A stretch of DNA of 48,910 nt from a virus. Shown in pieces: positions 1-27,919 of the stretch. The translations under genes and the position numbers were made by a program. A model generated the notes under the pieces. That model saw only the letters and a list, made by a program, of their open reading frames with translations. It did not search any database and was not told the origin of the DNA. The first letter of the stretch is position 1, and every line of letters begins with the position of its first letter. The DNA is taken from the IMG/VR virus record IMGVR_UViG_3300027742_000002, positions 1-48,910 of that record; one strand, 5' to 3'.

Positions 1-99
1 TACCCGCAATTAGTAATAAAATCGCGGTAGAAACACTAATAACAAGTAATAGTAAATAACAACAAGTAGTACACAAATGTAATGATTGTTAAACCAAAT
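1..99. repeat. Left copy of a 99-bp direct terminal redundancy, identical to 48812..48910
   Basis: Comparing the first 99 bases (tacccgcaattagtaataaaatcgcgg...gttaaaccaaat) with the last 99 bases of the window by eye shows an exact match. Confidence 0.9.
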
Positions 100-115
100 G
101 TATACCAAATATAAT
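86..115 (+). promoter_or_regulatory. Candidate sigma70-type early promoter (TTGTTA, 18-nt spacer, TATAAT)
   Basis: TTGTTA lies at 86..91 and a perfect TATAAT at 110..115. It sits in the non-coding left end and points towards the early genes. The 18-nt spacer is slightly long and the -35 is imperfect. Confidence 0.3.
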
Positions 116-129
116 CAAATAGACCAAAT
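93..129. repeat. Four phased A(C/T)CAAAT repeats with 9 to 11 bp spacing
   Basis: ACCAAAT occurs at 93..99, 104..110 and 123..129, and ATCAAAT at 114..120. The roughly 10-bp period suggests a binding array or intrinsically bent DNA. Confidence 0.6.
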
Positions 130-225
130 ATTAAAAAGTGGTAGTAAATGTGAGGAGGTACTCCCTCCACACACCAACAAATAGTTTCCCCCATAGGTAC
201 CTTCATAACACTATATAACCATAGT

Positions 226-240
226 CATGTGTAACACATG
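226..240. promoter_or_regulatory. Perfect 15-bp palindrome CATGTGT-A-ACACATG (operator-like)
   Basis: The palindrome was read directly. It is followed by the inverted repeat GTTAC..GTAAC and a second GTAACAC copy at about 254. Confidence 0.5.
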
Positions 241-271
241 GTTACTACGTTGGTAACACCTGTGGTCTTGG

Positions 272-299
272 TGGGCTGCGCCCAGATATGTCTCTTTTG
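272..299 (+). terminator. Small GC hairpin plus ATATGTCTCTTTTG motif (copy 1), candidate intrinsic terminator or attenuator
   Basis: The stem-loop is TGGGC-TGC-GCCCA at 272..284, followed by ATATGTCTCTTTTG at 286..299. The motif matches 13 of 14 bases of the copy at 1077..1090. Confidence 0.4.
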
Positions 300-308
300 T
301 GATTATGT

Positions 309-335
309 TATACACACTATACACACTATGTACAC
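309..335. repeat. Tandem 9-mers TATACACAC / TATACACAC / TATGTACAC
   Basis: Three head-to-tail 9-bp units were read directly, about 30 bp upstream of the first ORF. Confidence 0.7.
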
Positions 336-362
336 TCTGTTACATAACACAACACTAACCAA

Positions 363-677
363 ATGGGTAACCAAATGAATACAAGTAATACAAGACTATT
401 AACAATAGCTAACACCAACACATCAACTGACTTAGTAACCGCAATCAAGGTAGATAACAACATGCTACGATATAAGACAACACACTCTACGGGTTGGGTA
501 GAGTTAATTGATTCAACTGGGGATTGTGGAGCAATCAACTTCGTCAACTGGATGAAAGAGACAGTGGTTGAGAAGACTGGTAAAGAGTCTAACCTTATCG
601 ACTTAGTTGTGCAGTATGTAGATACATTTAGTAACGTGGAGTTACGTAACTTTAAATTCAATGGAGCGCTATCATGA
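363..677 (+). CDS. Hypothetical early protein (104 aa)
   Basis: This is the first + strand ORF and its translation looks protein-like. The overlapping minus-strand ORF 326..769 is low complexity. No clear RBS, and an alternative ATG lies at 375. Confidence 0.5.
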   Translation: MGNQMNTSNTRLLTIANTNTSTDLVTAIKVDNNMLRYKTTHSTGWVELIDSTGDCGAINFVNWMKETVVEKTGKESNLIDLVVQYVDTFSNVELRNFKFNGALS

Positions 678-1000
678 GCAAGTACACAACAAAGCAAGAC
701 CTTAACCGTCGTAAGAGTGACATACGTAGAAACAATAGGAACAAGAGTATGGCTACAAAGATAGTGCATAAAAAGATTAATGTATGGAAGCTAGTAAGAT
801 ACACATGTTACGCTATAATGGCTTACCACTTACATAACGGAGTAGTAACCATGACAGATAGTGTGATACGAGCTAGTAACCAATACACACTGGAGACTAA
901 CTGTGTTAAGGAACAGATAGCAATGGGTGTACCGAGAATACATATTGGTACTGAAGATGGTACATGTTGGGTAGAGACTAATGCGTATTATAACGATTAA
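674..1000 (+). CDS. Hypothetical early protein (108 aa)
   Basis: An ATGA start/stop overlap links it to the upstream ORF, and a GGAG lies about 10 nt upstream. Confidence 0.55.
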   Translation: MSKYTTKQDLNRRKSDIRRNNRNKSMATKIVHKKINVWKLVRYTCYAIMAYHLHNGVVTMTDSVIRASNQYTLETNCVKEQIAMGVPRIHIGTEDGTCWVETNAYYND

Positions 1001-1063
1001 CAAAGACACACCGTTGGTTCTAAGTGTCGTTAACCAATCGTTGACACTCTTGGACTCCACTAA

Positions 1064-1090
1064 GCGACAAAGTCGCATATGTCTTTTTTG
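1064..1090 (+). terminator. Small hairpin plus ATATGTCTTTTTTG motif (copy 2), candidate intrinsic terminator or attenuator
   Basis: The stem-loop is GCGAC-AAA-GTCGC at 1064..1076, followed by ATATGTCTTTTTTG at 1077..1090. It lies between the second ORF and the RNAP1 gene. Confidence 0.4.
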
Positions 1091-1145
1091 AAGTTGGTAG
1101 GATTAATGGGCCGCAAGGTCGTTTATAACTAAGTGAGTAAATATC

Positions 1146-3320
1146 ATGAAAACATCAGTAAATGAAGTAGCAACATCATTAACAGTAGTACAACCTCAAC
1201 TGTCTTTCGTGTCACAATCAGTAGCGAAAGCATTAAAGATAGATGATGTACAAGGTGAGGTTAATAACTTACTGGATCAAGCACGTAATAACATTGGTCG
1301 CTTTGAAGCAACTGATGAGTGGTTAGCGAACAAGCTAACCGAGCTACCAACAGTGATAGAGGGTGACGTTAAGATAATGTACACAGACAGCCGTGACTTT
1401 AGACAAGTTAAGGATCAATCATTGTCTGAATCATTATGGGTTATTGTACTAAAGCAAGTACAATACCATTTATCGGTTAACTATGATCTGTTATCCACAG
1501 CGTTTGCTAACTGGATTAACGACAACGTGTATACCGAGCATGAGGTGTTGGGTGTGAGTGAATATCAGCGAGTAGAGATAGAATCCTCGTCTATGGTATC
1601 CGTAGCAAAGAACTACCTCGTAGCAATGCAACAGCTAGGTATAATCGACAAGAACCTAGTTAAGAAAGTTATTCGATTACAAGCTGGTAACAACATTACA
1701 GCCAAGGTGTACGAAATAACACCTGAGTTCACTAGTGAGCTTAATGAGTTAATCGAAGAACTCCGTGAGAAAGCAGCGTATAAATGTGCTCCGTTAGAAC
1801 ATGTACCACAAGATTGGGAAAACATGAGAGTAGGAGTTGCGGATAACACCAACATGAAGCTTGTGGCCAGAGCTAAGGTCAAGTCGAACTCTGTATCAAA
1901 GCATGTACTTAGTGCGGTGAATAAACTACAGCGTGTTAAGTTTACTGTCTCACCTTGTATTCTTGAAGCAGCTAAAGATATGACCATGAACAAATCACTG
2001 TTCACACAACAAGAGTACAAACATCGTTTCTTCATTGAGAAAGAGGTGAGTAAAGAAGCCTTTGAGTTGTACAATGAGATACAACACTACGCTGGTAAAG
2101 AGTTTTACTTCCCAGTGACAATGGACACACGTGGTCGAATGTACTACCGAGGTGGTATGTTATCGCCACAAGGTGTTGACTTCTGTAAAGCAGCATTCCA
2201 ATTTGCTGAATACAAGCCACTAGGTAAGCAGGGCTATAAAGCGATCTGTTTACACACTGCTAACGTGTGCGGTATGGATGGCGAATCTATCGATGATCGG
2301 GTCAAGTGGGTACAGGACAATTGGGAAACAATTATCTCCGTATCCACTCACAGGGACATCAGGAAGCGATTTCAGGGCGCTGATGTGTTTCAGGCACTCG
2401 TAGCCTGCCTTGAGCTTAAAAGGCTGTCAGTAGGCTCTCAGGCATGGGAGGATCGAACCTCGAATTTAGTCTGTCATGTGGACGGAACCTGTAATGGGTT
2501 GCAGCACATGGCAGCGATCACTGGAGACAGAGCAACAGCAACCGCTGTGAACTGTGTAGAATCAACAAACAGCGACAAACCAGCAGATGTGTATGGATTG
2601 GTTGCAAAGGCAGCCGAAGAACATGCAGTTGGTACACCGTTAGAGTTAATCAAGCAATACGGTAGAGGTATGTCAAAAAATCCGGTGATGATTACAAGCT
2701 ATGGCGCAACTGAAACCACAGTGAAAGCGAACACAGTTACATACCTCAAGAAGCAAGGACAGAACGTAACTAATGCTGAGGATATAGGTGATGCTTATCT
2801 AACCTCTATTGAAGAGACAGCAGGAGCGGTTACTCAACTAACCGACGCATTAAGCACACGTGTACAATTCGCAGTAGCAGCGGGTATGAAGAAGTTTACA
2901 TGGAGAACAGCGGATGGGTTCTTAGCATCCACTCGTTACGATGATGATGAACAGATGGCTGTACGAGTTGGTACATTTTACACTCGTAAGCGTAACATGG
3001 GTTCAGCACCACTTGATGCTCGTAAGACAGCACAAGCAATGGCTCCTAACTTCGTACACAGTATTGATGCAACACACCTCCGTATGGTAATCAACGAGTG
3101 CGACCATGACCTAGTAGCAGTACACGATTCAATTGGGTCACATCCTGGGGATTACTTCGAGACATCACGGGTAATTCGTAAAACATTCGCAGCATTGCAT
3201 AACGAATACGACGCACTTGCAGACCTTTGTGCAAGTATGAAGCAACCTGTACCTGAATTTCCACGTAACGGTGATTACAATGCTAACGAAGCGTTGAAAT
3301 CAGCTTACATATTTTCTTAA
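1146..3320 (+). CDS. Single-subunit T7-type DNA-directed RNA polymerase, copy 1 (724 aa, divergent and compact)
   Basis: Palm motifs are present: HVDGTCNGLQHMAAITGD (motif A, Asp at about aa 446), GRGMSKNPVMITSYGAT (motif B Lys/Tyr), PNFVHSIDATHLR, and VAVHDSIGSH (motif C, Asp at about aa 661). The C-terminus is ...AYIFS, compared with FAFA in T7. Confidence 0.9.
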   Translation: MKTSVNEVATSLTVVQPQLSFVSQSVAKALKIDDVQGEVNNLLDQARNNIGRFEATDEWLANKLTELPTVIEGDVKIMYTDSRDFRQVKDQSLSESLWVIVLKQVQYHLSVNYDLLSTAFANWINDNVYTEHEVLGVSEYQRVEIESSSMVSVAKNYLVAMQQLGIIDKNLVKKVIRLQAGNNITAKVYEITPEFTSELNELIEELREKAAYKCAPLEHVPQDWENMRVGVADNTNMKLVARAKVKSNSVSKHVLSAVNKLQRVKFTVSPCILEAAKDMTMNKSLFTQQEYKHRFFIEKEVSKEAFELYNEIQHYAGKEFYFPVTMDTRGRMYYRGGMLSPQGVDFCKAAFQFAEYKPLGKQGYKAICLHTANVCGMDGESIDDRVKWVQDNWETIISVSTHRDIRKRFQGADVFQALVACLELKRLSVGSQAWEDRTSNLVCHVDGTCNGLQHMAAITGDRATATAVNCVESTNSDKPADVYGLVAKAAEEHAVGTPLELIKQYGRGMSKNPVMITSYGATETTVKANTVTYLKKQGQNVTNAEDIGDAYLTSIEETAGAVTQLTDALSTRVQFAVAAGMKKFTWRTADGFLASTRYDDDEQMAVRVGTFYTRKRNMGSAPLDARKTAQAMAPNFVHSIDATHLRMVINECDHDLVAVHDSIGSHPGDYFETSRVIRKTFAALHNEYDALADLCASMKQPVPEFPRNGDYNANEALKSAYIFS

Positions 3321-3341
3321 TCAGTAGGTAGGAGAAACACC

Positions 3342-3641
3342 ATGAACACATATTTTATAAGTAGAGTAACAGGTCAACGGTATAAGATTGACAAAAGAGA
3401 TATAGCATGGATGAGAAGCGGTAATGAATGGATGCTATGCACAAAAATAACTAGTGAGAAGTTAACAATAGGTAAAAACATATTTAGAAAACTCAAGATG
3501 CACACAGGCGCAATAAAACATCTTGGTAAAGTTGTTAAAGTTCCGTACTACTACACGGACTCTGAAACAATAGAGTTTGAATTTCAAGGTAAAGTATTTA
3601 TGACTCATTACAAATCATTACTTTTTTACGAAGCAGGATAA
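3342..3641 (+). CDS. Hypothetical protein (99 aa)
   Basis: The ORF has an AGGAG RBS (gtaggagaaacaccATG). Confidence 0.6.
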   Translation: MNTYFISRVTGQRYKIDKRDIAWMRSGNEWMLCTKITSEKLTIGKNIFRKLKMHTGAIKHLGKVVKVPYYYTDSETIEFEFQGKVFMTHYKSLLFYEAG

Positions 3642-3644
3642 CTT

Positions 3645-4079
3645 ATGGTCACGAAGCGTAAAGCAGGTGGTGGTCGTAAACCGATGGTGATGCCAAACCC
3701 GTTTGTTGTTTACGACCACTGGGGCGAAGAAGAGAACATCTTGTGGGAAAATGAAGACGAGCTGGAAACTCGTGTAGAAGAAATACTAATAGGATGTATC
3801 CGATCTTTTAATGCACATAAACCGTGGTCTGTAAGACAAGAATATGTTAGCTGGTCAAGGTTATTTAAGGTTTACCGAAACTGCAACACGCTAACAAGAC
3901 AGAATATACAAAACCAGTTACAATGTTCCGAATCTCAGGCGAAAAGGTACGTTAGAGTAATCAAACTAGCAAACCCTTTTTTAGAGAGATTAGTCAAAGG
4001 AGATAACCGCAGCAACATAAAAGGTTATATCGACATGACACCAGATCAAGTAGAGGCTGGGTATTTAGAAAACTTATAA
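3645..4079 (+). CDS. Hypothetical protein with a probable C-terminal helix-turn-helix (144 aa)
   Basis: The segment TRQNIQNQLQCSESQAKRYVRVIKLA resembles an HTH. The gene is tightly packed after the upstream ORF. Confidence 0.45.
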   Translation: MVTKRKAGGGRKPMVMPNPFVVYDHWGEEENILWENEDELETRVEEILIGCIRSFNAHKPWSVRQEYVSWSRLFKVYRNCNTLTRQNIQNQLQCSESQAKRYVRVIKLANPFLERLVKGDNRSNIKGYIDMTPDQVEAGYLENL

Positions 4080-4093
4080 CAAAGGTGATAGTT

Positions 4094-4306
4094 ATGTATG
4101 AATTAGAAGATATTTCAAGATCAATGAAAGTGCAAGATACTAGACACGATGGTAATACTATAAAAGGTAACGTCGTGAAAGGTGGTGGACATTACAACGA
4201 AGGACATGGTGTAAGGTTCGCTGACAAAGATAACTGGGTTGCACGAGCTAACGCACGGCCAACCCTAATAGTACGTAATGGAAAGGTAGTTTATAATGGA
4301 ACTTAA
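4094..4306 (+). CDS. Hypothetical protein (70 aa from the ATG)
   Basis: The track ORF starts at a GTG at 4085. The ATG at 4094 is better placed behind AAAGGTG. Confidence 0.5.
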   Translation: MYELEDISRSMKVQDTRHDGNTIKGNVVKGGGHYNEGHGVRFADKDNWVARANARPTLIVRNGKVVYNGT

Positions 4307-4529
4307 TACTTGGCAGAAGGAAGAATTAATAAAGTCGTTAAATAAACAGAAGACTGATATATTCGCAACCAAAGGAAGTACCACGGAAGCGTTAGATTAC
4401 GCTGTATCATTAGGTAAAGCAGAAGGAATGGAAGCAGGTTATATGACCATAGCTATTATGATTTACCACAACACATTAGTAGACCAACTTATCAAACAGA
4501 TAGCAGGAGTAAACAATGACAAAGGTTAA
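4296..4529 (+). CDS. Hypothetical protein (77 aa)
   Basis: The ORF overlaps the upstream stop, and the packing is consistent with an operon. Confidence 0.5.
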   Translation: MELNTWQKEELIKSLNKQKTDIFATKGSTTEALDYAVSLGKAEGMEAGYMTIAIMIYHNTLVDQLIKQIAGVNNDKG

Positions 4530-4758
4530 GCAAAGTAGTACGAGAAAGATAAGAAAATCAATAATGTCGTCGGCATGGTTTATGGCTATGCAAGAGTTGT
4601 TTAGACCACAAGCACAACCGATGCAGATGTTACATAAACCTGTAAAATACGAAGGTGGTCGATCCAAACAATACGGACAATCACACTTCAAACAAAACCG
4701 ACGTAAAGATTTGAAAGCGAGAGCGAAACGTCGTGCTAAGAAGCACAAACATAATTAA
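4516..4758 (+). CDS. Highly basic small protein (80 aa), possibly nucleic-acid binding
   Basis: The C-terminal tail FKQNRRKDLKARAKRRAKKHKHN is Lys/Arg-rich. Confidence 0.5.
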   Translation: MTKVKQSSTRKIRKSIMSSAWFMAMQELFRPQAQPMQMLHKPVKYEGGRSKQYGQSHFKQNRRKDLKARAKRRAKKHKHN

Positions 4759-4768
4759 TAGGTGTAAC

Positions 4769-5800
4769 ATGAACCAGATCAAATATGGTATGACGCGGGA
4801 ATACCGAGAAGAGTGGGGTATAGTTGAAGCAATCCGCGAATTAGTACAAAACTGTATTGATAACAAGGAATGTGAGCACACCTATGAATTAGAAAGGGAT
4901 GCGTTAATAACAATAACAACGAAGAACTTTACATTACCTGTGAGTACATTCGCATTAGGTGAAAGCCAAAACAAAACATCAGAAAGTATAGGTGGTTTTG
5001 GTGAAGGATTCAAACTGGCTTTGTTGGTATTACAAAGAGCAGGTTGTTGCCCTATGGTTACATTTGGTGATAAAAGAGCACAACCACAGTTTGAATACGA
5101 CGAGCTACTAGAGCGAGAAACATTCATGATAACTCTAGTAGATAGTGAGTATACAGAAGATACTACATTTCAGTTCCTATTCCCGAAGGAATTAAAAGAA
5201 GAACTACAAAAGAAAGTAACAGTATTTAGTGATGAACCATTATCACAAAACATAGATGATGTTGAACTGCTACCAGAGCGAGAGGGCCAGATATTTGTTA
5301 ACGGCCTATTCGTATGTGAAGAACATCAATTTAAGTATGGGTACAACTTTGCAGCAGACAACATTGAATTAGGTTGTGACAGACAGATAGCCAACCCACT
5401 AGGACTTGCTTGGGAAACCAGTAAATACTGGGCGAATAACCTAGACCCACAAGAAGTACTACAAATGATGACGGATGGACAACTTGATGTACAAGACATC
5501 CACTGGCATATAAGCGAAGCACAAGCAGTGCGTATAACAAAAGCATTCGTTGAAAGGTACGGGAATGTGACAATTAAATCCATGGGAAGTACACTCTCCT
5601 ACGGTATGTCAGTTGGCAATAGTCTGTACAACACATTATCAAAATCGAATAAGATTAAAATAGCAAACCCTTATGAGGAATCTGGTACACCATACCGTAT
5701 CCTTAGTGACTTCTTAGAAACAAACAAGAAGCACATGAGGCGATGCGCTAAAAAGAATTTGCAAGAACTAATGGATGAATCTAAGAGTTGGCGCAAATAG
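4769..5800 (+). CDS. GHKL (Bergerat-fold) ATPase-like protein (343 aa)
   Basis: An N-box-like IRELVQNCIDN and a G2-box-like IGGFGEGFKLALLV are present. No canonical DxGxG G1 box was seen. The start was moved to the ATG at 4769, behind AGGTG. Confidence 0.5.
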   Translation: MNQIKYGMTREYREEWGIVEAIRELVQNCIDNKECEHTYELERDALITITTKNFTLPVSTFALGESQNKTSESIGGFGEGFKLALLVLQRAGCCPMVTFGDKRAQPQFEYDELLERETFMITLVDSEYTEDTTFQFLFPKELKEELQKKVTVFSDEPLSQNIDDVELLPEREGQIFVNGLFVCEEHQFKYGYNFAADNIELGCDRQIANPLGLAWETSKYWANNLDPQEVLQMMTDGQLDVQDIHWHISEAQAVRITKAFVERYGNVTIKSMGSTLSYGMSVGNSLYNTLSKSNKIKIANPYEESGTPYRILSDFLETNKKHMRRCAKKNLQELMDESKSWRK

Positions 5801-5824
5801 AGGCATAAGCCTCATCATGATGAG
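5800..5824 (+). promoter_or_regulatory. Overlapping hairpin GAGGC-ATAA-GCCTC and perfect 14-bp palindrome CTCATCATGATGAG
   Basis: Both were read directly in the 76-bp gap between the GHKL-like gene and the 5877 ORF. There is no U-tract. Confidence 0.4.
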
Positions 5825-5876
5825 CTAATACAAACCCGTGGAGTAGCTCACCACTTAATAACAAAGGAGTGACATT

Positions 5877-6287
5877 ATGTCTCTATCAGAACTAGCTGCA
5901 TTTGCAGTTAAAAACAACAACACAGCAGCACGAGTTGGTGTACATACACTATCTCTTGAAGAAGCACGTGCTAAAGTAGTCATTAAAGACGGCAACCGAG
6001 TTGCTAAAGAGGATGGCACACAAGCACTGACACTTGTACTGGGTAAATACGTTGTATCACTTGATGCGGTTTCTAAAGGAGCCACACGTATCAATGCAGC
6101 GAAGAGTAAAGTAAAAGCATTTACTACAACTCTACAAGCTGCACTAGACGCAGGTGATTTTGACGACGCTATCGTAGCAGCGCAGGCAAAAGCTGCTCCA
6201 GCTAACCGCACTGTTAAGCCTAGCGAAACACCAGACGCACCAGAGGAAGCACCAGAAGGTGTCGATCTTGGCGAACTGGATAGCTAA
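5877..6287 (+). CDS. Hypothetical Ala-rich protein with an acidic C-terminus (136 aa)
   Basis: The RBS is strong (AAAGGAGtgacattATG). The C-terminus is ETPDAPEEAPEGVDLGELDS. Confidence 0.7.
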   Translation: MSLSELAAFAVKNNNTAARVGVHTLSLEEARAKVVIKDGNRVAKEDGTQALTLVLGKYVVSLDAVSKGATRINAAKSKVKAFTTTLQAALDAGDFDDAIVAAQAKAAPANRTVKPSETPDAPEEAPEGVDLGELDS

Positions 6288-6644
6288 AATAAACACGGGC
6301 TAATAACCTGAGTTAATTGGGGGTGGTGGTAGATGTAAATTTGCCATCATCTCTAACAATATAAATAACAAACATAAATAAACATAAACAATATAAGTAA
6401 AGTTAGTTCACTTACAACTGTGCTGGAAAGCACGGAACGGTAACTATAGTAAAGATTCTAGGCACAAAGCACCACAGAGTGTGGAAGACAGCAGCATATC
6501 TATTACTATATCTATTGTTATTACACAGTGTGGAATCCAATGTATTGACTCATACAAGATTGAGTATACTACGAGAAAGCACTGCCTCTGTTACCAATTG
6601 AGGGTACAGTCTGTAAGTGAATTAACGAAGTATAGGACAACAAC
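6288..6644. other. AT-rich non-coding region with short direct repeats, a candidate replication origin or regulatory region
   Basis: An AT-rich run (ataaataacaaacataaataaacataaacaatataag) is present. ATATCTATT occurs twice. CACAG(A)GTGTGGAA occurs twice, containing the weak DnaA-box-like TGTGGAAGA at 6480..6488 and TGTGGAATC at 6529..6537. The hairpin GTGCT-GGAA-AGCAC lies at about 6420. The region sits directly upstream of the primase gene. Confidence 0.35.
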
Positions 6645-6827
6645 ATGTTCGGTAAAGAACAACCAGACGTTGTTACTGATGATGATGTTGGTAACTTCGT
6701 TAAACAACTACACCAAGAAGGTGTAAAAGAAATAGAAACTTTTATCTTGGGAGAAGACGATGGAATTAATAGAGATGGACTTCGCAGAAGTCGAGATGAG
6801 AGTAGCAGCACAACCGAAAGTGAATAA
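6645..6827 (+). CDS. Possible small acidic protein (60 aa)
   Basis: The ORF lies in the gap before the primase gene. It competes with the overlapping ORFs 6481..6726 and 6760..6954, and its RBS is weak. Confidence 0.3.
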   Translation: MFGKEQPDVVTDDDVGNFVKQLHQEGVKEIETFILGEDDGINRDGLRRSRDESSSTTESE

Positions 6828-6892
6828 GGATTTAAGAACGAAGTCGTATGTAGAAGCATACGGCTCACCAAGAAAAATGTCAGAGGTTTTAA

Positions 6893-7675
6893 ATGGAGTG
6901 GTTAACTCTAGCGGAGAACCTTCCAACGGGCCAGAAACTACGAAAAGATTGTGAATGTGGTGATGGTAAAACACTTGTAATTAACCACACAGTAAAAGGA
7001 TACTCACGATTTTGTTTTAGATGTGATATAGATGACTTCGTTGGTAAGGGTAAACAATCACTTGCTGAGTTAGCAAGGATACGTGAACTAAACGAAGCAG
7101 CAAAATCAATTAAACTAACACTGGAGCTACCACATGACTTTACAAGAGAGATTCCAATACATGGAAGATTGTGGCTATACTCCGGTGGAATCACAGAGTC
7201 AGTCTGGCGAGAGTATGGTATCGGTTATTCAGAAAGCATTGACAGAGTTGTACTCCCTGTATACGACACCAGCAATAACCTTGTATGGTTCCAGTGTAGA
7301 GCGTTACATAAAGGACAAAAACCTAAATATATACAACCAGCAAGAAGTAGAGATAATGAGCTATTTCAAGTCGGATACAGCAAAACAAATCTACAACGAG
7401 TTGTTGTTGTTGAAGACATACTATCAGCAATTAGAGTCGGTAAACACATCCCAACTGTTTCCTTACTTGGAACAAAAATTACAACAGGTCAGGCAGCAAG
7501 ACTGTCAGAATATGAAAAAGTAACTACATGGCTTGATTCAGACCGCGCAGGACGGCGGGGGGCTTACACAATCCGTAAAACAATCGGACTTGTTACAGAG
7601 ATTAATAACATAGTGACAATAAAAGACCCTAAAAAATTAACAGATCAGCAAATAAGAGAAATATTATGCCTATAG
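6893..7675 (+). CDS. DNA primase (T7 gp4 N-terminal type: zinc finger plus TOPRIM), 260 aa
   Basis: A Cys4 zinc motif DCECGDG...FCFRCD is present. TOPRIM-like VVVVEDILSAIRV and WLDSDRAGRRG are present. GAGG lies 8 nt upstream of the ATG. Confidence 0.8.
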   Translation: MEWLTLAENLPTGQKLRKDCECGDGKTLVINHTVKGYSRFCFRCDIDDFVGKGKQSLAELARIRELNEAAKSIKLTLELPHDFTREIPIHGRLWLYSGGITESVWREYGIGYSESIDRVVLPVYDTSNNLVWFQCRALHKGQKPKYIQPARSRDNELFQVGYSKTNLQRVVVVEDILSAIRVGKHIPTVSLLGTKITTGQAARLSEYEKVTTWLDSDRAGRRGAYTIRKTIGLVTEINNIVTIKDPKKLTDQQIREILCL

Positions 7676-8520
7676 CACCACATGAAAATATTGAATTAGA
7701 GTATGTAATGGTAGGATTAAAACCACTTGCATCATTAGAAAAAGATAAACAACCAGATCAATTTGAACGCGCTTTGAAATTAAAGCATGTAGCAAGCGTT
7801 ATGCAACACGACGAGAATTTACTAACAGTAACCAGACGTGAAAATAGTCACTTGCACGAAGTGTTTAAATTACTATCTTCTGAAAGAGCATCAGTAATAG
7901 TTAGATCAGCAGAAGAAAAGCATAGACTACTAGGACGATTGTTCGGTTATTCAGAGACCGACATCGACGAGTTTATTGCAGCAGGGTTAGATTGCGCCTG
8001 TGGGCAGTGTGAGTGGAACAAGGAACCAGAAGAAACAACCAAAACCAAATTACCACAACTGTCAGGGAGAACACAGCAAATACTTATAGATTGGTGCGTA
8101 GATAACTTACTACCTATTCAACCTTTAGCAGAATATAATCCAGAGACCTTAGCGGCACTGAAGAAAGATAGAATGGATGGGGTAATATACGTATTTAGTG
8201 GAGGAAGTAAAAACAACATATTCACTAGCGATCTAGCAATACTATGTTTTAGAGCGTGGCATGACGAAATACATATAAAATACAACCTAGACTTCTCATT
8301 AGACCATGAGTTAATAGTAGCAGCCTTACACGATAAGGAAGCTATTGAAATGGGTATATCTAAAGAGGACGCAAAACTACTATCCTTAGACATTGAGCTT
8401 CATGTACGACACCTACATAAACACGGTGTACACCCAGAGTACCAAACTCAGATGTTGTCTGATTACATGGTCGTGGGTTTAGAGTGTCTCAATAATAACT
8501 ACGGATTAGTAGAGTGGTAG
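7666..8520 (+). CDS. Hypothetical protein (284 aa) between the primase and helicase genes
   Basis: This long ORF is overlap-coupled at both ends. I recognised no motif. Confidence 0.65.
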   Translation: MPIAPHENIELEYVMVGLKPLASLEKDKQPDQFERALKLKHVASVMQHDENLLTVTRRENSHLHEVFKLLSSERASVIVRSAEEKHRLLGRLFGYSETDIDEFIAAGLDCACGQCEWNKEPEETTKTKLPQLSGRTQQILIDWCVDNLLPIQPLAEYNPETLAALKKDRMDGVIYVFSGGSKNNIFTSDLAILCFRAWHDEIHIKYNLDFSLDHELIVAALHDKEAIEMGISKEDAKLLSLDIELHVRHLHKHGVHPEYQTQMLSDYMVVGLECLNNNYGLVEW

Positions 8521-9761
8521 ACTTAGCCCTGCTACGTATAATCAAGTACCGAGAACAATATAATAAAGTTCATCGGTACATACCACGTTCAGCTATTGAC
8601 AAACGTACAAAAGCTGTAACAGACGATATCAGTAAGTACTTCGAGCTGAATGAGGAAGAGCAAGTAATAGACTTCCCATCATTTCGCAGTATGTTCTTTA
8701 CAACTTGGCACAAAGGTATGGCCGAAAGCGATTGCGACTATTACAATACATTAATAGATCGTATGGAAGAAGACGTACCAGAGTCAATTAAGAAGAACAT
8801 TATAAACCAACTACTAGAGTTAGAGTTTGCTACTGATGTCGCTAACGTAGTACAGGAGTATGAACAAGGTGAAGAAATAGAAGTAGTTGTCGCAGTAGAC
8901 AACCTAGTAACACGAGTTAAAGAAACATTAGAAAGAACAGCAGCTACAGAATTCGCTGACTTCGATGATTCCACAATAGGTGGTGACGGAGACGAAGAAG
9001 GATTAGCATGGTGTTTACCAATAATGAACGACCACTATCGTAAAATACAAGGTGGCGACCAATACATTATTGCAGCAAGACCAGGAAAAGGTAAGACATC
9101 GTTCTTAACATTCCTTAACTGGAGTATGGCACAACAGATGCCAGATAATAAGGTTATCGTGTGGTTCAACAACGAATCAAGACGACAACGTATTATGTCA
9201 CGACAAATTATGTCAGCTTTAAATGCAAGTAACGTAACACTAGCAGAAAAGCAAAGAGCAGGTACATTACGTGACGAGTACATAGAAGCAATGGGTTCAC
9301 CAGATCGTGTACGAGTATACGATATACATGGTAAAAACAACTTCCATCTTGAAGAGATACTTGAAGGTATTGGGATAGATAATGTAGGAGCTATCGTATT
9401 AGATATGCTTGACAATGTGAAATTCCCAACTCGTAAGGATATACGTGAAGATCAGAAGTTAGAACAACTATACCAATGGTCGCGTGAACTAGGTGTGAAG
9501 TATAACTGCCCAGTGTTCCCTACAAGTCAGATAAGTAACGAGGGTACAGGTCTTATGTTCCCATCAGAGAATATGTTGAAAGACAGTAAGACAGGTAAAC
9601 AAGGTGCGTGTGATGGGATTATTATGTTGGGTTCATCCGCTGATCCATTATTACAAAACAAACGTGGTATTAGTATGCCAAAAACCAAATCAAAGAAAGA
9701 GGGTATGCCTGATCTACGAGAGGAAATAACATTCGATGCAGATCGGGGAAGATTTATATGA
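8514..9761 (+). CDS. DnaB/T7 gp4-type replicative DNA helicase (415 aa, GTG start)
   Basis: Walker A is IIAARPGKGKTSFL and Walker B-like is AIVLDMLD. The ORF starts at a GTG that overlaps the upstream stop. Confidence 0.8.
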   Translation: MVDLALLRIIKYREQYNKVHRYIPRSAIDKRTKAVTDDISKYFELNEEEQVIDFPSFRSMFFTTWHKGMAESDCDYYNTLIDRMEEDVPESIKKNIINQLLELEFATDVANVVQEYEQGEEIEVVVAVDNLVTRVKETLERTAATEFADFDDSTIGGDGDEEGLAWCLPIMNDHYRKIQGGDQYIIAARPGKGKTSFLTFLNWSMAQQMPDNKVIVWFNNESRRQRIMSRQIMSALNASNVTLAEKQRAGTLRDEYIEAMGSPDRVRVYDIHGKNNFHLEEILEGIGIDNVGAIVLDMLDNVKFPTRKDIREDQKLEQLYQWSRELGVKYNCPVFPTSQISNEGTGLMFPSENMLKDSKTGKQGACDGIIMLGSSADPLLQNKRGISMPKTKSKKEGMPDLREEITFDADRGRFI

Positions 9762-10057
9762 AAGATAAGAATATAGAATCAATAGAATCATTACCAATAC
9801 GTACATTGTACCAAGCTGCTATGTGTATAGATGATAGAGCAGAACAAAGGGACGTAGAAGGTGAGCGTTCAATGGAAGCAACGGTTGGAGCATTTAATCA
9901 AATGTTTGACACAAATTTAACAGAAGAGCAAGGCTGGCACTTTATGGTATTGCTAAAAATGGCAAGATCAAAAGGTGGTAAATACCGCCAAGATGATTAC
10001 GTTGATGGTGCAGCTTATTTCGCTCTAGCAGGAGAGAGTAGACATGATAGTATTTAA
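9758..10057 (+). CDS. Hypothetical protein (99 aa)
   Basis: An ATGA overlap links it to the helicase stop. Confidence 0.6.
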   Translation: MKDKNIESIESLPIRTLYQAAMCIDDRAEQRDVEGERSMEATVGAFNQMFDTNLTEEQGWHFMVLLKMARSKGGKYRQDDYVDGAAYFALAGESRHDSI

Positions 10058-10262
10058 ACGAGTAACACAAGACGGTGACGAAATTGAAATTGGAGTACCG
10101 TTAACAAACATATCAGAAGTTTCACCACATAAAGAAGTGAAAGATCGAGTGTGGGTAAAGTATTGGAACGGTTCAGAGATTCGTTCAATGGTAGTAATTG
10201 GTACTGTTGAAGAGATCGCAGTAGATGTGCGTCGTGCTAGACATGGTGGGACTATACTATGA
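10044..10262 (+). CDS. Hypothetical protein (72 aa)
   Basis: The ORF is overlap-coupled on both sides. Confidence 0.55.
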   Translation: MIVFKRVTQDGDEIEIGVPLTNISEVSPHKEVKDRVWVKYWNGSEIRSMVVIGTVEEIAVDVRRARHGGTIL

Positions 10263-10915
10263 TCGAATACCTAGAACACGCGGGTAGCGACAATAGTATC
10301 GCTAACACAGCACGTGTATCAATGCAATTTGATACTAATTGGAATGAGTTACCAGATGGTTACACAGACTTAGAAAGAGATAGTCTTATACGGTATCTAG
10401 CAACGAATGAGCACACAAGCCCATTCAGGCACACATCGATAACAATCCGTGTGAACTTACCAATATTCCTAGCACGACAACTAGGTAAACATCAAGTAGG
10501 TCTTTCATGGAACGAAGTATCTCGGCGGTATGTTGATGAAGAACCATCCTTTTGGAAACCAGCGCAATGGCGAGGTAGACCTGATGGAAGTATCAAACAA
10601 GGTAGCTCAGAAGACCTACCAGAAGATACACAAAATATCGTAGATGATGTATACATGAACGCGCTAGACATATGTGAAGGCGCGTACCAAAACATGCTAG
10701 AGAATGGTGTTGCACCAGAACTGGCACGTATGGTGTTACCACAATCAATGGAAACACAAATCATATGGACAGGTTCTTTAATGGCTTTCGCGCACGTGTA
10801 TAACCTACGATCAGATAGCCATGCACAAGTAGAAGCACAAGACTTCGCAGCAGAACTGGACTATGTGATACGTCCATTATTTCCTGTAGCTTGGGAAGCA
10901 CTAACAAGTAAATAA
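10259..10915 (+). CDS. thyX: ThyX-like flavin-dependent thymidylate synthase with a divergent signature (218 aa)
   Basis: It contains HTSPFRHTSITIRV and then QLGKHQVGLSWNEVSRRY. This matches the ThyX signature RHRxxSxxxxSxRY, except that RHR is replaced by KHQ. Confidence 0.65.
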   Translation: MIEYLEHAGSDNSIANTARVSMQFDTNWNELPDGYTDLERDSLIRYLATNEHTSPFRHTSITIRVNLPIFLARQLGKHQVGLSWNEVSRRYVDEEPSFWKPAQWRGRPDGSIKQGSSEDLPEDTQNIVDDVYMNALDICEGAYQNMLENGVAPELARMVLPQSMETQIIWTGSLMAFAHVYNLRSDSHAQVEAQDFAAELDYVIRPLFPVAWEALTSK

Positions 10916-10928
10916 AACGGAGAAATAG

Positions 10929-21071: not shown

Positions 21072-23465
21072 ATGAACTTGAGTCAGCAAGTCGAGTGGGA
21101 AAAGGAATGTCAACGCCGTGGATCAGAACGATACTACGCAAACCAAGACAGACTTAGAGAAAAGAATCAGGGAGACACAACAGATGTTATGTCTTACCTT
21201 ATTAAAGATAGACTAGAGGACTCAGCAGACTACTTAGAAGATTTAGTTAAAAGTGGTTCTCGTGGAAGAGCAGCAAGCTACAACACTATTATTAGGAGTG
21301 TAGCCCAAGACGACTACTTGAAGATAGCGTACATAGGCTTAAAGGCAGTACTCAAAGCTATTCAAGTTCGTGAGAAGAATACTGTATTAAAAGTGACATT
21401 AGATATTGCAGCACGTATAGAAGCTGATATGAAATGTCAAATGTTTGAAGCAGCACATCCAGAATACTATGATACTGTAAGACGATCATTCGCAGAACAG
21501 AATGTTACAGATTACGCACACAAACATAAAGTATTAATGAAGAAGTTTGGTGACTTTGAAATAGAATGGTATGACTGGTCTCCAACCGAGAAGGTTCAGA
21601 TAGGTGTAAGGATTCTACGAGCGATACTAAATGTATTTGGAGACATAATCTTCATGTATACAGAACGTAGCCGTGGTAAGACTACTAATAAGTTAGACAC
21701 AACAGTACAGTTTGATGAATGGGCAGCAGAATTCGAGAAAGAACGAGGGTTACTAAACCCAACATACCTGCCATTAAAAGTACCACCAAGACCGTGGACT
21801 TCATTAACAGAGGGTGGATACCATACACCACACCTACGACTAAGGTTTGTGAAAACTAAAGGTAACGATCATAAAGAATTCGTAGAACAACACATACCAC
21901 ACAAGCACATTAGAGCAGTTAACAAGATGCAACGTACAGCGTGGCAAATTAATGACACTGTGTTAAAAGTACAAGAAGAGATATATCACAAAGGGTTAGG
22001 TATAGGGATGCCATCCAAGGAAAGGATAGAACCACCCACATTCCCAGAGCATCTAAAGTCTATTGACAAAGACGATCTAACAGACGATCAAAAAGATGAG
22101 ATTAGAAATTGGAAGATAATAGCCAAACGGTGTTACGGAAGAGAGCAACAACGTAAAGGTCAAGTATTAGCATTCATCCAAGGTCACAAGTTAGCTAAGG
22201 AGCTAAGAGATTGGGAACGGTTGTACTTCGCATATACATGTGACTTCCGAGGACGTATATATTGTGCGACATCAGGACTATCACCACAGGGAGCAGACAC
22301 AGCAAAAGGTCTGTTAAGATTCGCAAAGTCTGTAGTGTTAGGTAAAGATGGAGTCAAGTGGTTAGCCATACATGGAGCTAACACATTTGGTGAAGACAAG
22401 TTGACATATAAAGATAGAGTAAATTGGATCAACGAACACGAACCATATATAAAACAGGTAGTATCAGACCCAATATCACACCGTGACTTCTGGGGTAGTG
22501 CAGACAAACCATACCAGTTTCTAGCATTCTGTTTCGAGTGGGCTAATTGTGATTATGGTAGAGACCACAACGCAACAGGACAATTACCAGTTGGATTAGA
22601 TGGTAGTTGTAATGGACTGCAACATTTCTCAGCAATGTTACGAGACGAAGTAGGAGCAGCCGCTACAAACTTAATGCCTTGTAGTACTCCAGAGGATATA
22701 TATCAACAAGTTGCAGATGTAACCACAGAGAAGCTAAAAGAGATAGACGACCCAAGAGCTGAAAAGTGGTTGAAAGTTGGTGTAGCAAGAAGTTGTGCTA
22801 AACGACCAGTAATGACTCTCCCGTATGGAGCAACACAGCAATCAGCACGTACTTATATTATGGAGTATGTGATGGACAACTGGAGTAAGTTTGAACTAGA
22901 TGAATCACACCAATGGGACTTCGCACGATTCTTAACACCTATACTATGGGAATCAATTAGTGAAGTAGTAATAGCAGCGCGAGAAGGTATGGACTGGTTA
23001 CAGAAGAACTCAGGAAGAGACTACGCTAAATGGTTAACACCATTGGATTTCCCAGTATACCAGTACTATAAGAAAGTGGATGCAACCAGAGTAGTAACAC
23101 AGCTAGACGGTAAAGTAGAGATATGGTTACGGGACTTCAACAGAGAAGGAGAACCCGCGTATAGTAAACAACGTAACGGGATAGCTCCAAACTTTGTACA
23201 CAGTATAGACAGTACACATATGGTAATGACTATTAATGGTACAGATGTAGACAGTTACGCAATGATACATGACGACTTTGGAACACATGCAGGAAACACA
23301 GAAAGACTATTTAAAGCTATCCGTAAGTCTTTCTTAATACTGTATAAGAACCATAACCCAATGCGAGAATGGGCTGAACAAATGGGTGTAGACGTAATGA
23401 CTATGCCAAAAGAAGGGTCATATAATATCGAGAACATCGAGAAAGCAGACTTTTTCTTTGGGTAA
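21072..23465 (+). CDS. Single-subunit T7-type DNA-directed RNA polymerase, copy 2 (797 aa, phiKMV-like position)
   Basis: The motifs are LDGSCNGLQHFSAMLRDEVG (Asp at about aa 510), ARSCAKRPVMTLPYGAT, FPVYQYYKK...GIAPNFVHSIDSTHMV and MIHDDFGTH. The C-terminus is ...ADFFFG. Confidence 0.92.
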   Translation: MNLSQQVEWEKECQRRGSERYYANQDRLREKNQGDTTDVMSYLIKDRLEDSADYLEDLVKSGSRGRAASYNTIIRSVAQDDYLKIAYIGLKAVLKAIQVREKNTVLKVTLDIAARIEADMKCQMFEAAHPEYYDTVRRSFAEQNVTDYAHKHKVLMKKFGDFEIEWYDWSPTEKVQIGVRILRAILNVFGDIIFMYTERSRGKTTNKLDTTVQFDEWAAEFEKERGLLNPTYLPLKVPPRPWTSLTEGGYHTPHLRLRFVKTKGNDHKEFVEQHIPHKHIRAVNKMQRTAWQINDTVLKVQEEIYHKGLGIGMPSKERIEPPTFPEHLKSIDKDDLTDDQKDEIRNWKIIAKRCYGREQQRKGQVLAFIQGHKLAKELRDWERLYFAYTCDFRGRIYCATSGLSPQGADTAKGLLRFAKSVVLGKDGVKWLAIHGANTFGEDKLTYKDRVNWINEHEPYIKQVVSDPISHRDFWGSADKPYQFLAFCFEWANCDYGRDHNATGQLPVGLDGSCNGLQHFSAMLRDEVGAAATNLMPCSTPEDIYQQVADVTTEKLKEIDDPRAEKWLKVGVARSCAKRPVMTLPYGATQQSARTYIMEYVMDNWSKFELDESHQWDFARFLTPILWESISEVVIAAREGMDWLQKNSGRDYAKWLTPLDFPVYQYYKKVDATRVVTQLDGKVEIWLRDFNREGEPAYSKQRNGIAPNFVHSIDSTHMVMTINGTDVDSYAMIHDDFGTHAGNTERLFKAIRKSFLILYKNHNPMREWAEQMGVDVMTMPKEGSYNIENIEKADFFFG

Positions 23466-27862: not shown

Positions 27863-27882
27863 ATAGGTGTTATTACACCAAG

Positions 27883-27919
27883 CGTATATGGAATCCCTCC
27901 ATATATGTTTTTTCTTTTT
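27883..27919 (+). terminator. Canonical intrinsic terminator CGUAUAUGGA-AUCCC-UCCAUAUAUG plus UUUUUUCUUUUU
   Basis: A 10-bp stem with one G-U pair is followed by a 12-nt T-rich run. Confidence 0.7.

What the first reader, a model, noticed from the sequence alone, without database searches (positions are those of the whole stretch)
1146..3320. A second, divergent T7-type RNA polymerase in the early region suggests a two-polymerase transcription cascade
The genome encodes two full-length single-subunit RNAPs, at 1146..3320 (724 aa) and 21072..23465 (797 aa). Both keep the catalytic signature. RNAP1 has the motif A Asp in HVDGTCNGLQH, the motif B Lys/Tyr in SKNPVMITSYGAT, PNFVHSID and the motif C Asp in VHDSIGSH. 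RNAP2 has the equivalents LDGSCNGLQH, AKRPVMTLPYGAT, PNFVHSID and IHDDFGTH. T7-like phages normally carry one RNAP gene, either early (T7, SP6) or at the end of the replication module (phiKMV group). This genome has one in each position. The segment just upstream of PNFVHS, which is the specificity-loop region in T7 RNAP, is unrelated between the copies. RNAP1 reads ...FLASTRYDDDEQMAVRVGTFYTRKRNMGSAPLDARKTAQAMA, while RNAP2 reads the T7-like FPVYQYYKKVDATRVVTQLDGKVEIWLRDFNREGEPAYSKQRNGIA. I infer that the two enzymes read different promoter families. RNAP1 would be made early and drive middle genes including RNAP2, and RNAP2 would drive late genes. That would make the phage largely independent of host RNAP.
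Basis: partly seen in the sequence, partly recalled or inferred. Interest (0 to 1): 0.85.

Follow-up and report, generated by a model that had tools for sequence, protein, structure and literature searches.

The report
Two phage RNA polymerases, known lineage
This marine podophage genome does encode two intact T7-type RNA polymerases, one early and divergent and one standard, but the same pair is already on record in related Alteromonas and Vibrio phages and its function has never been tested.

Summary
ORFs 1146..3320 (724 aa, RNAP1) and 21072..23465 (797 aa, RNAP2) are both full-length single-subunit RNA polymerases, and both keep every T7 catalytic residue. RNAP1 belongs to a distinct, long-branched family of at least 120 metagenomic clusters. 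It has a divergent N-terminal domain, a shorter thumb and a shorter specificity hairpin. RNAP2 is the ortholog of the single polymerase found in phiKMV-layout relatives such as the Rhizobium phages.

Both genes split in the same way into an Alteromonas-type and a Vibrio-type branch. The pair is therefore old and co-inherited, not a recent duplication or acquisition.

The arrangement is not new. It is annotated in Alteromonas phages H4/4 (2017) and R8W and in Vibrio phages JSF7, phiV141 and the K-series. A 2025 survey of marine Autographiviridae has a section on two-RNAP genomes and already suggests that different polymerases transcribe different genes.

The proposed early-to-late cascade is plausible. 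It fits gene position, operon structure and the divergent recognition loops. I could not detect two promoter families, or even one multi-copy family, in this genome or its relatives, and I found no experimental work. Verdict: a new member of a known but functionally unexplored kind, of moderate interest.

The parts
1146..3320 (+). RNAP1: early, divergent T7-type single-subunit RNA polymerase (724 aa). The polymerase domain spans about residues 320-724. The N-terminal domain (about 20-215) has no detectable sequence similarity to T7 or RNAP2. The thumb is short. The specificity hairpin lies at about 598-620.
21072..23465 (+). RNAP2: standard T7/phiKMV-type RNA polymerase (797 aa) with an RPOL_N N-terminal domain. 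It lies directly upstream of the structural module and directly abuts the preceding gene, with a 1-nt gap.
1046..1064 (+). 19-nt non-coding block ACTCTTGGACTCCACTAAG, about 90 nt upstream of RNAP1. It is near-identical in three close relatives and occurs once in the genome. It contains a CACTAAG core that resembles T3/T7 promoter cores. It is a candidate promoter or regulatory site, not proven.
1064..1090 (+). Conserved 5-bp stem-loop (GCGAC-AAA-GTCGC) followed by the U-rich ATATGTCTTTTTTG. Two of the five pairs show compensatory changes across four genomes. It could be a terminator or attenuator, or a 5' stabilising hairpin ahead of RNAP1.
1108..1121 (+). Second conserved hairpin with a GNRA-type loop (GGCC-GCAA-GGTC), about 25 nt upstream of the RNAP1 start codon. 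Equivalents are present in L036, L037, R8W and H4/4.
5840..5852 (+). Single-copy intergenic element GGAGTAGCTCACC, conserved at the same genomic position in the three close relatives L036-L038 (mismatches: L036 1, L038 1, L037 3); R8W and H4/4 carry only a gapped, more divergent version (GGAGTTAGGCTCACC, GGAGTTAAGCTCACC). It sits inside a hairpin-forming region between early genes. Its function is unknown; a processing site or a promoter are possible.
27880..27910 (+). Strong terminator-like hairpin (13-bp stem followed by a T-run) just after the major capsid gene. It is conserved in R8W and H4/4 and is the only strong terminator found on the + strand.
86..115 (+). Best sigma-70-like site on the + strand in the first 20 kb scanned (TTGTTA-18-TATAAT, 10 of 12), in the terminal non-coding region upstream of the early genes.

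Best explanation
The phage divides transcription between two promoter-specific single-subunit RNA polymerases. RNAP1 is one of the first genes to enter the cell. It would be made from host-RNAP transcripts and would then take over transcription of the early-middle block, that is, the genes of unknown function and the DNA-metabolism genes down to and including RNAP2. It probably also drives the transcription-coupled entry of the rest of the genome. In phiKMV-layout relatives with one RNAP, those tasks fall to the host enzyme. RNAP2 is the ortholog of the single RNAP of those relatives and would transcribe the late structural, lysis and packaging genes.

Shown: both genes are intact and conserved, their positions are as described, they have been co-inherited for a long time, and their recognition loops differ. 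Inferred: the timing, the target genes, the separate promoter sets and the independence from host RNAP.
For: All catalytic and NTP-binding residues are invariant in both groups and in 62 RNAP1-type proteins down to 31% identity. The RNAP1 model is confident (pLDDT 91.6, pTM 0.87) and best matches T7 RNAP complexes (TM 0.71, E 8e-29). It has a long beta-hairpin at residues 167-191 where the T7 intercalating hairpin aligns.

The RNAP1 clade and the RNAP2 clade are each monophyletic (100% bootstrap), and both split in the same way into Alteromonas-type and Vibrio-type branches. The pair has therefore been kept together over deep divergence, which argues that the two roles are not redundant.

RNAP2 tends to group with the single RNAPs of Rhizobium phage N37 and Pseudomonas phage Kadastiku in the NJ tree, though with only 58% bootstrap support, and it shares 35% identity with N37 over its full length. 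Both of those genes also sit 17-20 kb into their genomes. RNAP1 is only 21-25% identical to every other RNAP, including its own partner.

In H4/4, which has mapped termini, RNAP1 is gene 3, 0.9 kb from the left end. The same early-plus-late layout occurs in R8W, phiV141, JSF7 and K437b. RNAP2 has no upstream gap and sits in a tightly packed block from 14278 to 23465.

The four T7 base-contact positions of the specificity loop differ between the two enzymes. Sigma-70-like sites are depleted relative to shuffles (33 against 55±7, 34 against 52±8, 13 against 21±5), and none lies in the intergenic regions ahead of the middle genes. RNAP1's codon usage and GC content are ordinary for this genome.
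Against: I could not detect two promoter families, or even one multi-copy family. The best motifs barely exceed shuffled controls (IC 22.9 against 21.6-22.1, 18.2 against 16.9-17.8, 26.3 against 24.8-25.5). Gene-upstream regions gave IC 22.4 (W=18, N=6), about the level of those shuffled intergenic controls; the gene-interior control run alongside (27.4-28.7) was flawed because its windows overlapped. Relatives also show no T7-style repeated promoter.

Between RNAP2 and the capsid gene there is almost no non-coding DNA, so late genes could also be reached by read-through from the middle block. No early gene resembles a known host-RNAP inhibitor or kinase. RNAP1's N-terminal domain has no Pfam RPOL_N match, so its way of recognising promoters, or its need for a cofactor, is unknown. 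The papers I could search contain no transcriptomic or biochemical data.
Confidence: 0.5

Rival explanations
1. RNAP2 is the main phage transcriptase for both middle and late genes, as T7 RNAP is. RNAP1 has a narrow early job, such as transcribing a few early genes or pulling the genome into the cell from one or two left-end promoters.
For: Only single-copy conserved non-coding elements are found, and they cluster around RNAP1 and the early region. The CACTA[AT][AG] cores are concentrated in the first 1.1 kb, with 4 of the 15 genome-wide sites there. RNAP1's thumb is about 30-40 residues shorter than in T7 or RNAP2. From my own knowledge of T7 thumb mutants, that may lower processivity and would suit short transcripts. 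RNAP1 evolves faster than RNAP2: 54-56% against 66-68% identity to R8W and H4/4, and 30% against 45% to phiV141.
Against: RNAP2 lies at the far end of the middle block with no promoter region of its own, so something else must transcribe the middle genes first. That is either the host RNAP or RNAP1. There is no positive evidence for RNAP2-type promoters ahead of the middle genes.
Confidence: 0.25
2. The two enzymes are largely redundant. The second copy serves as insurance against host defences or inhibitors that target one phage RNAP, or it broadens host range.
For: Both enzymes appear fully active. RNAP1 evolves quickly, which would fit an arms race. R8W is reported to have a broad host range (PMC8228385).
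Against: The early and late positions are fixed, and the two genes have diverged in step across Alteromonas-type and Vibrio-type lineages. Both points argue for distinct, non-interchangeable roles. The recognition loops differ at every base-contact position, so the enzymes are unlikely to read the same promoters. RNAP1 has no match to the defence-system models in PADLOC.
Confidence: 0.12
3. RNAP1 is not mainly a transcriptase. It would make primers or R-loops for replication initiation, as T7 RNAP does at the T7 origin and as mitochondrial RNAP does.
For: RNAP1-type profiles also match mitochondrial RNAPs strongly (E 4e-48). Three perfect DnaA boxes and AT-rich tracts lie in nearby non-coding DNA.
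Against: The phage encodes its own Toprim primase and DnaB-type helicase. All T7-family RNAPs match mitochondrial RNAP, so that match is not specific. No candidate origin lies next to RNAP1.
Confidence: 0.05
4. RNAP1 is an inactive or decaying paralogue kept by chance.
For: It has no RPOL_N Pfam match, its thumb is shorter, and its N-terminus is divergent.
Against: Sixty-two homologues spanning 31-78% identity keep every catalytic residue and conserved N-terminal residues. At least 120 clusters of full-length proteins exist. The fold prediction is confident. The identical protein was recovered from several independent metagenome assemblies.
Confidence: 0.03

Closest known systems
Alteromonas phages vB_AspP-H4/4 and vB_AmeP-R8W (genus Foturvirus, Autographiviridae)
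   Same: Gene order is the same throughout. An early RNAP of about 708 aa is 54-56% identical to RNAP1, and a 796-aa RNAP directly upstream of the structural genes is 66-68% identical to RNAP2. The H4/4 genome note lists 'two DNA-dependent RNA polymerases' (PMC5658483).
   Different: Only about 75% nucleotide identity over 8-10% of the first 20 kb. Many early and tail genes have no counterpart. The window is an uncultured relative outside those species. Neither paper analyses the two polymerases, and the R8W paper never mentions RNA polymerase.
Vibrio phages JSF7 and phiV141 (genus Tawavirus) and the K-series oyster Vibrio phages (e.g. K437b)
   Same: The two-RNAP layout is the same: an early enzyme of 673-698 aa and a late-position enzyme of about 802 aa. 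Both genes fall in the same clades as the window's genes.
   Different: They are more distant: 30-33% identity for RNAP1 and 45-46% for RNAP2. The host genus differs. The gene downstream of RNAP1 is not conserved.
Two-RNAP marine Autographiviridae, groups AG-14 and AG-10.1 (Commun Biol 2025, PMC12361551)
   Same: The paper reports 17 AG-14 and 23 AG-10.1 genomes with an additional RNAP of about 650 aa. It notes the low identity to other RNAPs and suggests that different RNAPs transcribe different genes. AG-14 includes cultured phages of Alteromonadaceae and Vibrio.
   Different: The paper describes the AG-14 additional gene as the one between the DNA-metabolism and structural modules, and favours horizontal transfer. 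Here the short divergent enzyme is the early one, the late-position enzyme is the standard ortholog, and the two have diverged in step. I could not confirm which genomes that paper counted, because no supplementary files were available.
T7 RNA polymerase and the T7 transcription programme
   Same: Fold and catalytic residues are the same. An RNAP gene lies near the left end, and a strong terminator follows the capsid gene.
   Different: T7 has a single RNAP and 17 highly conserved promoters (my own knowledge). Here there are two RNAPs and no detectable conserved promoter family. RNAP1 has a different N-terminal domain and a shorter thumb and specificity loop.
phiKMV-layout phages (Krylovirinae, the Rhizobium Cuernavacavirus phages and others)
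   Same: RNAP2 sits at the end of the DNA-metabolism module. In the NJ tree it tends to group with the single RNAPs of Rhizobium phage N37 and Pseudomonas phage Kadastiku (58% bootstrap), and it shares 35% identity with N37. The phiKMV and KP34-like RNAPs themselves fall in a separate clade at only about 27% identity. Promoters are not obvious.
   Different: Those phages have only that one RNAP and rely on host RNAP for early and middle genes (my own knowledge).
Coliphage N4 (three-polymerase cascade) and phiKZ-type jumbo phages (two multisubunit RNAPs)
   Same: These are precedents for successive phage-encoded RNAPs serving different temporal classes. The RNAP1 profile weakly matches N4 RNAPII (E 4.5e-8).
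   Different: N4 uses a giant virion-packaged RNAP and a heterodimeric RNAPII that needs a cofactor. phiKZ uses multisubunit enzymes. Here both enzymes are ordinary single polypeptides, and neither is positioned like a virion protein.

Membership tests
T7-type single-subunit RNA polymerase (Pfam PF00940), tested for RNAP1 | RNA_pol domain above the Pfam gathering score | tested here: met
   207 bits against a cut-off of 22, E 6e-61, residues 357-705. PHROG 414, E 9e-125.
T7-type single-subunit RNA polymerase (Pfam PF00940), tested for RNAP1 | Catalytic Asp of motifs A and C (T7 D537, D812), motif B R627/K631/Y639, and H784 | tested here: met
   All are invariant in alignment A1. In 62 homologues they appear as D446, R507, K511, Y519, H638 and D661.
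T7-type single-subunit RNA polymerase (Pfam PF00940), tested for RNAP1 | Specificity-loop beta-hairpin in the fingers and a C-terminal aromatic 'foot' | tested here: met
   The hairpin is at 605-614 in a confident model. It aligns to T7 739-770 and is shorter. F723, equivalent to T7 F882, is invariant.
T7-type single-subunit RNA polymerase (Pfam PF00940), tested for RNAP1 | T7-like N-terminal promoter-binding domain (Pfam RPOL_N, AT-rich recognition loop, intercalating hairpin) | tested here: inconclusive
   RNAP1 has no RPOL_N match, while RNAP2 does. The profile aligns only weakly to T7 residues 271-349. The whole-chain fold match has TM 0.71. A beta-hairpin at 167-191 aligns to the T7 intercalating hairpin. 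An AT-rich loop could not be identified.
T7-type single-subunit RNA polymerase (Pfam PF00940), tested for RNAP1 | Promoter-specific transcription activity | not testable with these tools
   This needs purified enzyme or in vivo 5'-end mapping.
Two-RNAP Autographiviridae lineage (Foturvirus, Tawavirus and metagenomic relatives) | A divergent RNAP of about 700 aa near the left end plus a standard RNAP of about 800 aa directly upstream of the structural module | tested here: met
Two-RNAP Autographiviridae lineage (Foturvirus, Tawavirus and metagenomic relatives) | Both polymerases are orthologous to those of the named phages | tested here: met
   The RNAP1-type and RNAP2-type clades each have 100% bootstrap support, and the window falls in the Alteromonas-type branch of both.
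Genus Foturvirus in the strict sense | Genus-level nucleotide similarity across the genome (the ICTV practice of about 70%, from my own knowledge) | tested here: not met
   Megablast found about 75% identity over only 8-10% of the first 20 kb. Protein identities are mostly 50-80%, and many genes have no match.
N4-like polymerase cascade | A giant virion-packaged RNAP and a heterodimeric RNAPII | tested here: not met
   Both RNAPs are single ORFs of 724 and 797 aa. The largest ORF (1761 aa) matches the internal virion protein of R8W and H4/4. The only vRNAP signal is a roughly 40-residue partial PHROG match.
phiKMV-type transcription layout | A single RNAP gene at the end of the DNA-metabolism module | tested here: not met
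   RNAP2 is in that position, but a second RNAP gene is present early in the genome.

The most novel reading that the evidence does not exclude
RNAP1 would represent an old, separate lineage of single-subunit RNA polymerase with a rebuilt N-terminal promoter-binding domain and a minimal specificity hairpin. In a widespread group of marine podophages it would have replaced host RNAP for middle-gene transcription and genome entry. These phages would then be almost independent of host RNAP and would carry a natural pair of mutually orthogonal polymerase and promoter systems in one 49-kb genome.
Probability: 0.35. Interest if true: 0.6.

Novelty: new member of a known kind. Interest (0 to 1): 0.4.

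Why it matters
If the division of labour is real, it shows how a T7-like phage can shed its dependence on host RNA polymerase by adding a second polymerase of its own. That would be an intermediate design between the phiKMV and T7 strategies, and a single-subunit parallel to the N4 and phiKZ cascades. It would also provide two compact and probably orthogonal RNAP-promoter pairs for synthetic biology and for in vitro RNA production.

The lineage is common in marine metagenomes: at least 120 protein clusters on contigs of 40-50 kb. It has cultured members on Alteromonas and Vibrio, including a V. cholerae phage, so the question can be tested directly. What this analysis adds is that RNAP2 is the ancestral ortholog, that RNAP1 is the extra and faster-evolving enzyme, and that the pair is old and co-inherited rather than recently acquired.

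Tried and rejected
Promoter discovery.
- Whole-genome direct repeats and exact k-mers gave no repeated element of 11 nt or more other than chance or coding repeats.
- All-against-all 18-mers in intergenic DNA gave only ribosome-binding-site and start-codon contexts and A-rich tracts.
- An 8-mer intergenic enrichment over the window, R8W and H4/4 put AATAAGGA on top, which is a stop codon plus ribosome-binding site.
- A soft-EM search collapsed onto A-rich low-complexity sequence, and an earlier version timed out.
- Hard-EM with shuffled controls was at noise level. Over four related genomes it recovered only elements conserved at the same genomic positions. Over all gene-upstream regions it found nothing, and the gene-interior control for that run was flawed because its windows overlapped.

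Candidate motifs examined and not accepted.
- GACTTTTWYYTWGGG: 12 hits against 11.3 expected, and one site is simply the codons for the RNAP2 C-terminus.
- TGTTAAACCAAA: the sites are mostly inside genes.
- GGAGTAGCTCACC and CTCTTGGACTCCACTAAG: each occurs once in the genome.
- GCTAATAAC: 34 hits against 13.6 expected with one mismatch allowed, including five intergenic sites. It is short and AT-rich and is confounded by codon usage.
- CACTA[AT][AG]: the genome-wide count is at the chance level, though the sites cluster at the left end.

Other checks that gave nothing.
- Repeat searches in phiV141, K437b and R8W found no T7-style promoter family.
- Early ORFs searched for host-RNAP inhibitors or kinases gave nothing, and PADLOC gave nothing.
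- No conserved cofactor gene lies next to RNAP1. The 144-aa downstream protein is conserved only among the Alteromonas-type phages.
- There are no tRNA genes and no Rfam family matches.
- Recent horizontal transfer of RNAP1 is rejected on composition and on the matching phylogenies.
Full report
WHAT IS THERE. The window is a complete podophage genome of 48.8 kb. Its first 99 nt are repeated exactly at the end. The same phage was assembled elsewhere as a 48,952-bp contig by a k=141 assembler. The repeat is therefore a circular-assembly overlap, not the physical terminal repeat. All genes lie on the + strand and are tightly packed.

BOTH ARE REAL POLYMERASES. Both hit Pfam RNA_pol PF00940 far above threshold, at 207 and 316 bits, and both hit PHROG 414. 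Only RNAP2 also hits the T7 N-terminal domain family RPOL_N. Aligned with T7 RNAP and four relatives of each type, the following T7 residues are invariant: D537, D812, R627, K631, Y639, H784, R425 and F882.

A search of 5.8 billion proteins found the window's exact protein and at least 120 further 90%-identity clusters of RNAP1-type proteins. They are 660-740 aa long, at least 40% identical, and mostly on metagenome contigs of 40-50 kb. In an alignment of 62 of them spanning 31-78% identity, every catalytic residue is invariant. Several N-terminal residues (E38, R83, W98, W123) are nearly invariant. RNAP1 is therefore under strong purifying selection along its whole length and is not a decaying copy.

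An AlphaFold2 model built on that alignment is confident (pLDDT 91.6, pTM 0.87). Its best structural matches are T7 RNAP elongation complexes (TM 0.71, E 8e-29), followed by mitochondrial RNAPs.

HOW RNAP1 DIFFERS.
- The profile matches T7 residues 411-888 strongly (E 3e-49) but matches only weakly before that.
- The first 215 or so residues have no detectable similarity to RNAP2.
- The segment corresponding to the T7 thumb is about 30-40 residues shorter than in T7 or RNAP2.
- A long predicted beta-hairpin at 167-191 aligns with the T7 intercalating hairpin.
- The specificity loop is retained as a short beta-hairpin. It is not 'unrelated', but it differs from RNAP2 at all four positions that contact bases in T7: A/R/R/R in RNAP1 and R/V/E/W in RNAP2.
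- Within the closest RNAP1 relatives this hairpin is nearly identical. Between subclades it changes.

EVOLUTIONARY HISTORY. The nearest deposited genomes are Alteromonas phages H4/4 and R8W (genus Foturvirus). Both are annotated with two RNA polymerases in the same two positions. Vibrio phages phiV141 and JSF7 (genus Tawavirus) and the K-series oyster phages have the same layout. One IMG/VR contig also carries both genes.

In a neighbour-joining tree with 200 bootstraps, RNAP1-type proteins form one clade (100%). The RNAP2 proteins of the two-RNAP phages form another (100%). Both clades split identically into an Alteromonas-type branch and a Vibrio-type branch.

RNAP2 tends to group with the single RNAPs of Rhizobium phage N37 and Pseudomonas phage Kadastiku in the NJ tree, though with only 58% bootstrap support, and it shares 35% identity with N37 over its full length. 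RNAP1 is only 21-25% identical to every other RNAP, including its own partner. RNAP1 also evolves faster than RNAP2: 54-56% against 66-68% identity to R8W and H4/4, and 30% against 45% to phiV141. Its GC content and codon usage are ordinary for this genome.

I conclude that RNAP2 is the ancestral, orthologous enzyme. RNAP1 is an old addition that has been inherited together with RNAP2 ever since. It is neither a recent duplicate nor a recent acquisition.

WHAT THE LITERATURE SAYS. The H4/4 genome announcement lists 'two DNA-dependent RNA polymerases' without comment (PMC5658483). The R8W paper does not mention RNA polymerase at all. [quoted passage not shown] That paper says the additional gene in AG-14 is the one between the DNA-metabolism and structural modules. 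In the lineage studied here the short, divergent enzyme is the early one. I found no transcriptomic, biochemical or genetic study of any of these pairs. About 1.7% of phage records with an RNAP match have a second match.

TESTING THE CASCADE IDEA. Several features fit it.
- In H4/4, whose ends were mapped, RNAP1 is the third gene, 0.9 kb from the left end.
- RNAP2 has a 1-nt gap to the gene before it. It sits in a block from 14278 to 23465 with only one 57-nt gap, so it must be co-transcribed with the DNA-metabolism genes.
- The only strong + strand terminator follows the capsid gene.
- Sigma-70-like sites are fewer than in shuffled sequence in all three genome segments, and none lies in the intergenic regions ahead of the middle genes.

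The decisive prediction, two families of conserved phage promoters, was not met. None of the searches found a multi-copy motif clearly above shuffled controls. They covered exact k-mers, pairwise window matching, intergenic enrichment across three genomes, and hard-EM motif searches in this genome, in four close relatives and upstream of all 57 genes. Related two-RNAP phages also show no T7-style promoter repeats.

What does emerge is a set of single-copy non-coding elements conserved at the same genomic positions:
- a 19-nt block with a CACTAAG core upstream of RNAP1;
- immediately after it, a 5-bp hairpin with compensatory changes and a U-rich tail;
- a second hairpin with a GNRA-type loop;
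- the element GGAGTAGCTCACC at 5840.

A short GCTAATAAC-like motif recurs in five intergenic regions and is over-represented (34 against 13.6 expected). It is too short and AT-rich to count as evidence. The separate-promoter idea therefore rests only on the divergent recognition loops. The failure to find promoters is not strong evidence against it, because phiKMV-layout phages typically have few and weakly conserved promoters (my own knowledge).

MOST LIKELY MECHANISM. I favour a division of labour, with confidence 0.5. Host RNAP transcribes the first genes, including RNAP1. RNAP1 then transcribes the early-middle block through to RNAP2 and probably helps pull the genome into the cell. RNAP2 transcribes the late genes, as its orthologs do in single-RNAP relatives.

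The rivals are:
- a narrow early role for RNAP1, with RNAP2 doing most of the work (0.25);
- redundancy, or insurance against host defences (0.12);
- a role in replication priming (0.05);
- an inactive copy (0.03, effectively excluded).

VERDICT. The window is a new, uncultured member of a known two-RNAP lineage whose mechanism nobody has tested. Interest is moderate.

Noticed in passing
window 1-99 and 48812-48910: The exact 99-nt terminal repeat is probably an assembler circularisation overlap. The same phage appears as a k141 contig of 48,952 bp, which is 48,811 + 141. By homology with the mapped H4/4 terminus, the physical left end would lie near window position 165.
   Followed up: partly
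window 48703-48744: Three perfect DnaA boxes (TGTGGATAA) lie within 42 nt of the right-end non-coding region. The genome has 4 against 0.47 expected by chance. A similar box (CCTGTGGATAAC) lies in the corresponding region of relative L036 at about 1760. This may be an origin or a host DnaA-binding site.
   Followed up: partly
window 286-300 and 1076-1090; L001 (R8W) 28-70; L004 (H4/4) 216-272; L036 2147 and 3058; L037 4798: The motif ATATGTCTCTTTTG recurs 1-3 times between the terminal repeat and the first genes in all relatives, and again just upstream of RNAP1. It resembles a boxA-type antitermination element (my own recollection), but its function is unknown.
   Followed up: partly
window, whole genome (scanned as 1-20000, 20001-40000 and 40001-48910): Sigma-70-like promoter matches are depleted on both strands relative to dinucleotide shuffles: 33 against 55±7, 34 against 52±8, and 13 against 21±5.
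   Followed up: no
window 27880-27910: A 13-bp hairpin followed by a T-run lies immediately after the major capsid gene. It is conserved almost base for base in R8W and H4/4, like the T7 T-phi terminator.
   Followed up: partly
window 26601-26683: The intergenic region before the capsid gene contains a long inverted repeat (TTCTCCAT...ATGGAGAA). R8W and H4/4 lack it; their gap there is only 27 nt.
   Followed up: no
window 6344-6395, 47997-48030 and 28-65: A/C-rich low-complexity tracts (AACAAATAAACATAAAC and similar) occur in several intergenic regions. They dominated the unconstrained motif searches.
   Followed up: no
window 48757-48790; L001 48470-48505; L004 47400-47430: The non-coding block CACTTTTC(C)CTTATAAATCAATGACTTTTATTT is conserved in all three Alteromonas-type genomes near the right end. 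It may be a packaging or terminus-related signal, or a promoter.
   Followed up: no
L001 (R8W) about 14650-14760: The 504-nt non-coding stretch upstream of the R8W DNA polymerase gene contains a tRNA T-arm-like GGTTCGATTCC. The window itself has no tRNA genes (ARAGORN) and no Rfam family matches.
   Followed up: partly
PMC12361551 compared with window 1146-3320 and 21072-23465: The 2025 survey describes the AG-14 'additional' RNAP of about 650 aa as lying between the DNA-metabolism and structural modules. In this lineage the short divergent enzyme is the early one, and the enzyme of about 800 aa in the late position is the standard ortholog. The paper's labelling may be reversed for these genomes, or it may refer to different genomes.
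   Followed up: partly
window 33917-39202: A single 1761-aa ORF matches the internal virion protein of R8W and H4/4, but only from just downstream of their separate small endolysin gene. In H4/4 that endolysin gene is joined to the virion protein by a -1 frameshift. No endolysin ORF lies at this position in the window.
   Followed up: no
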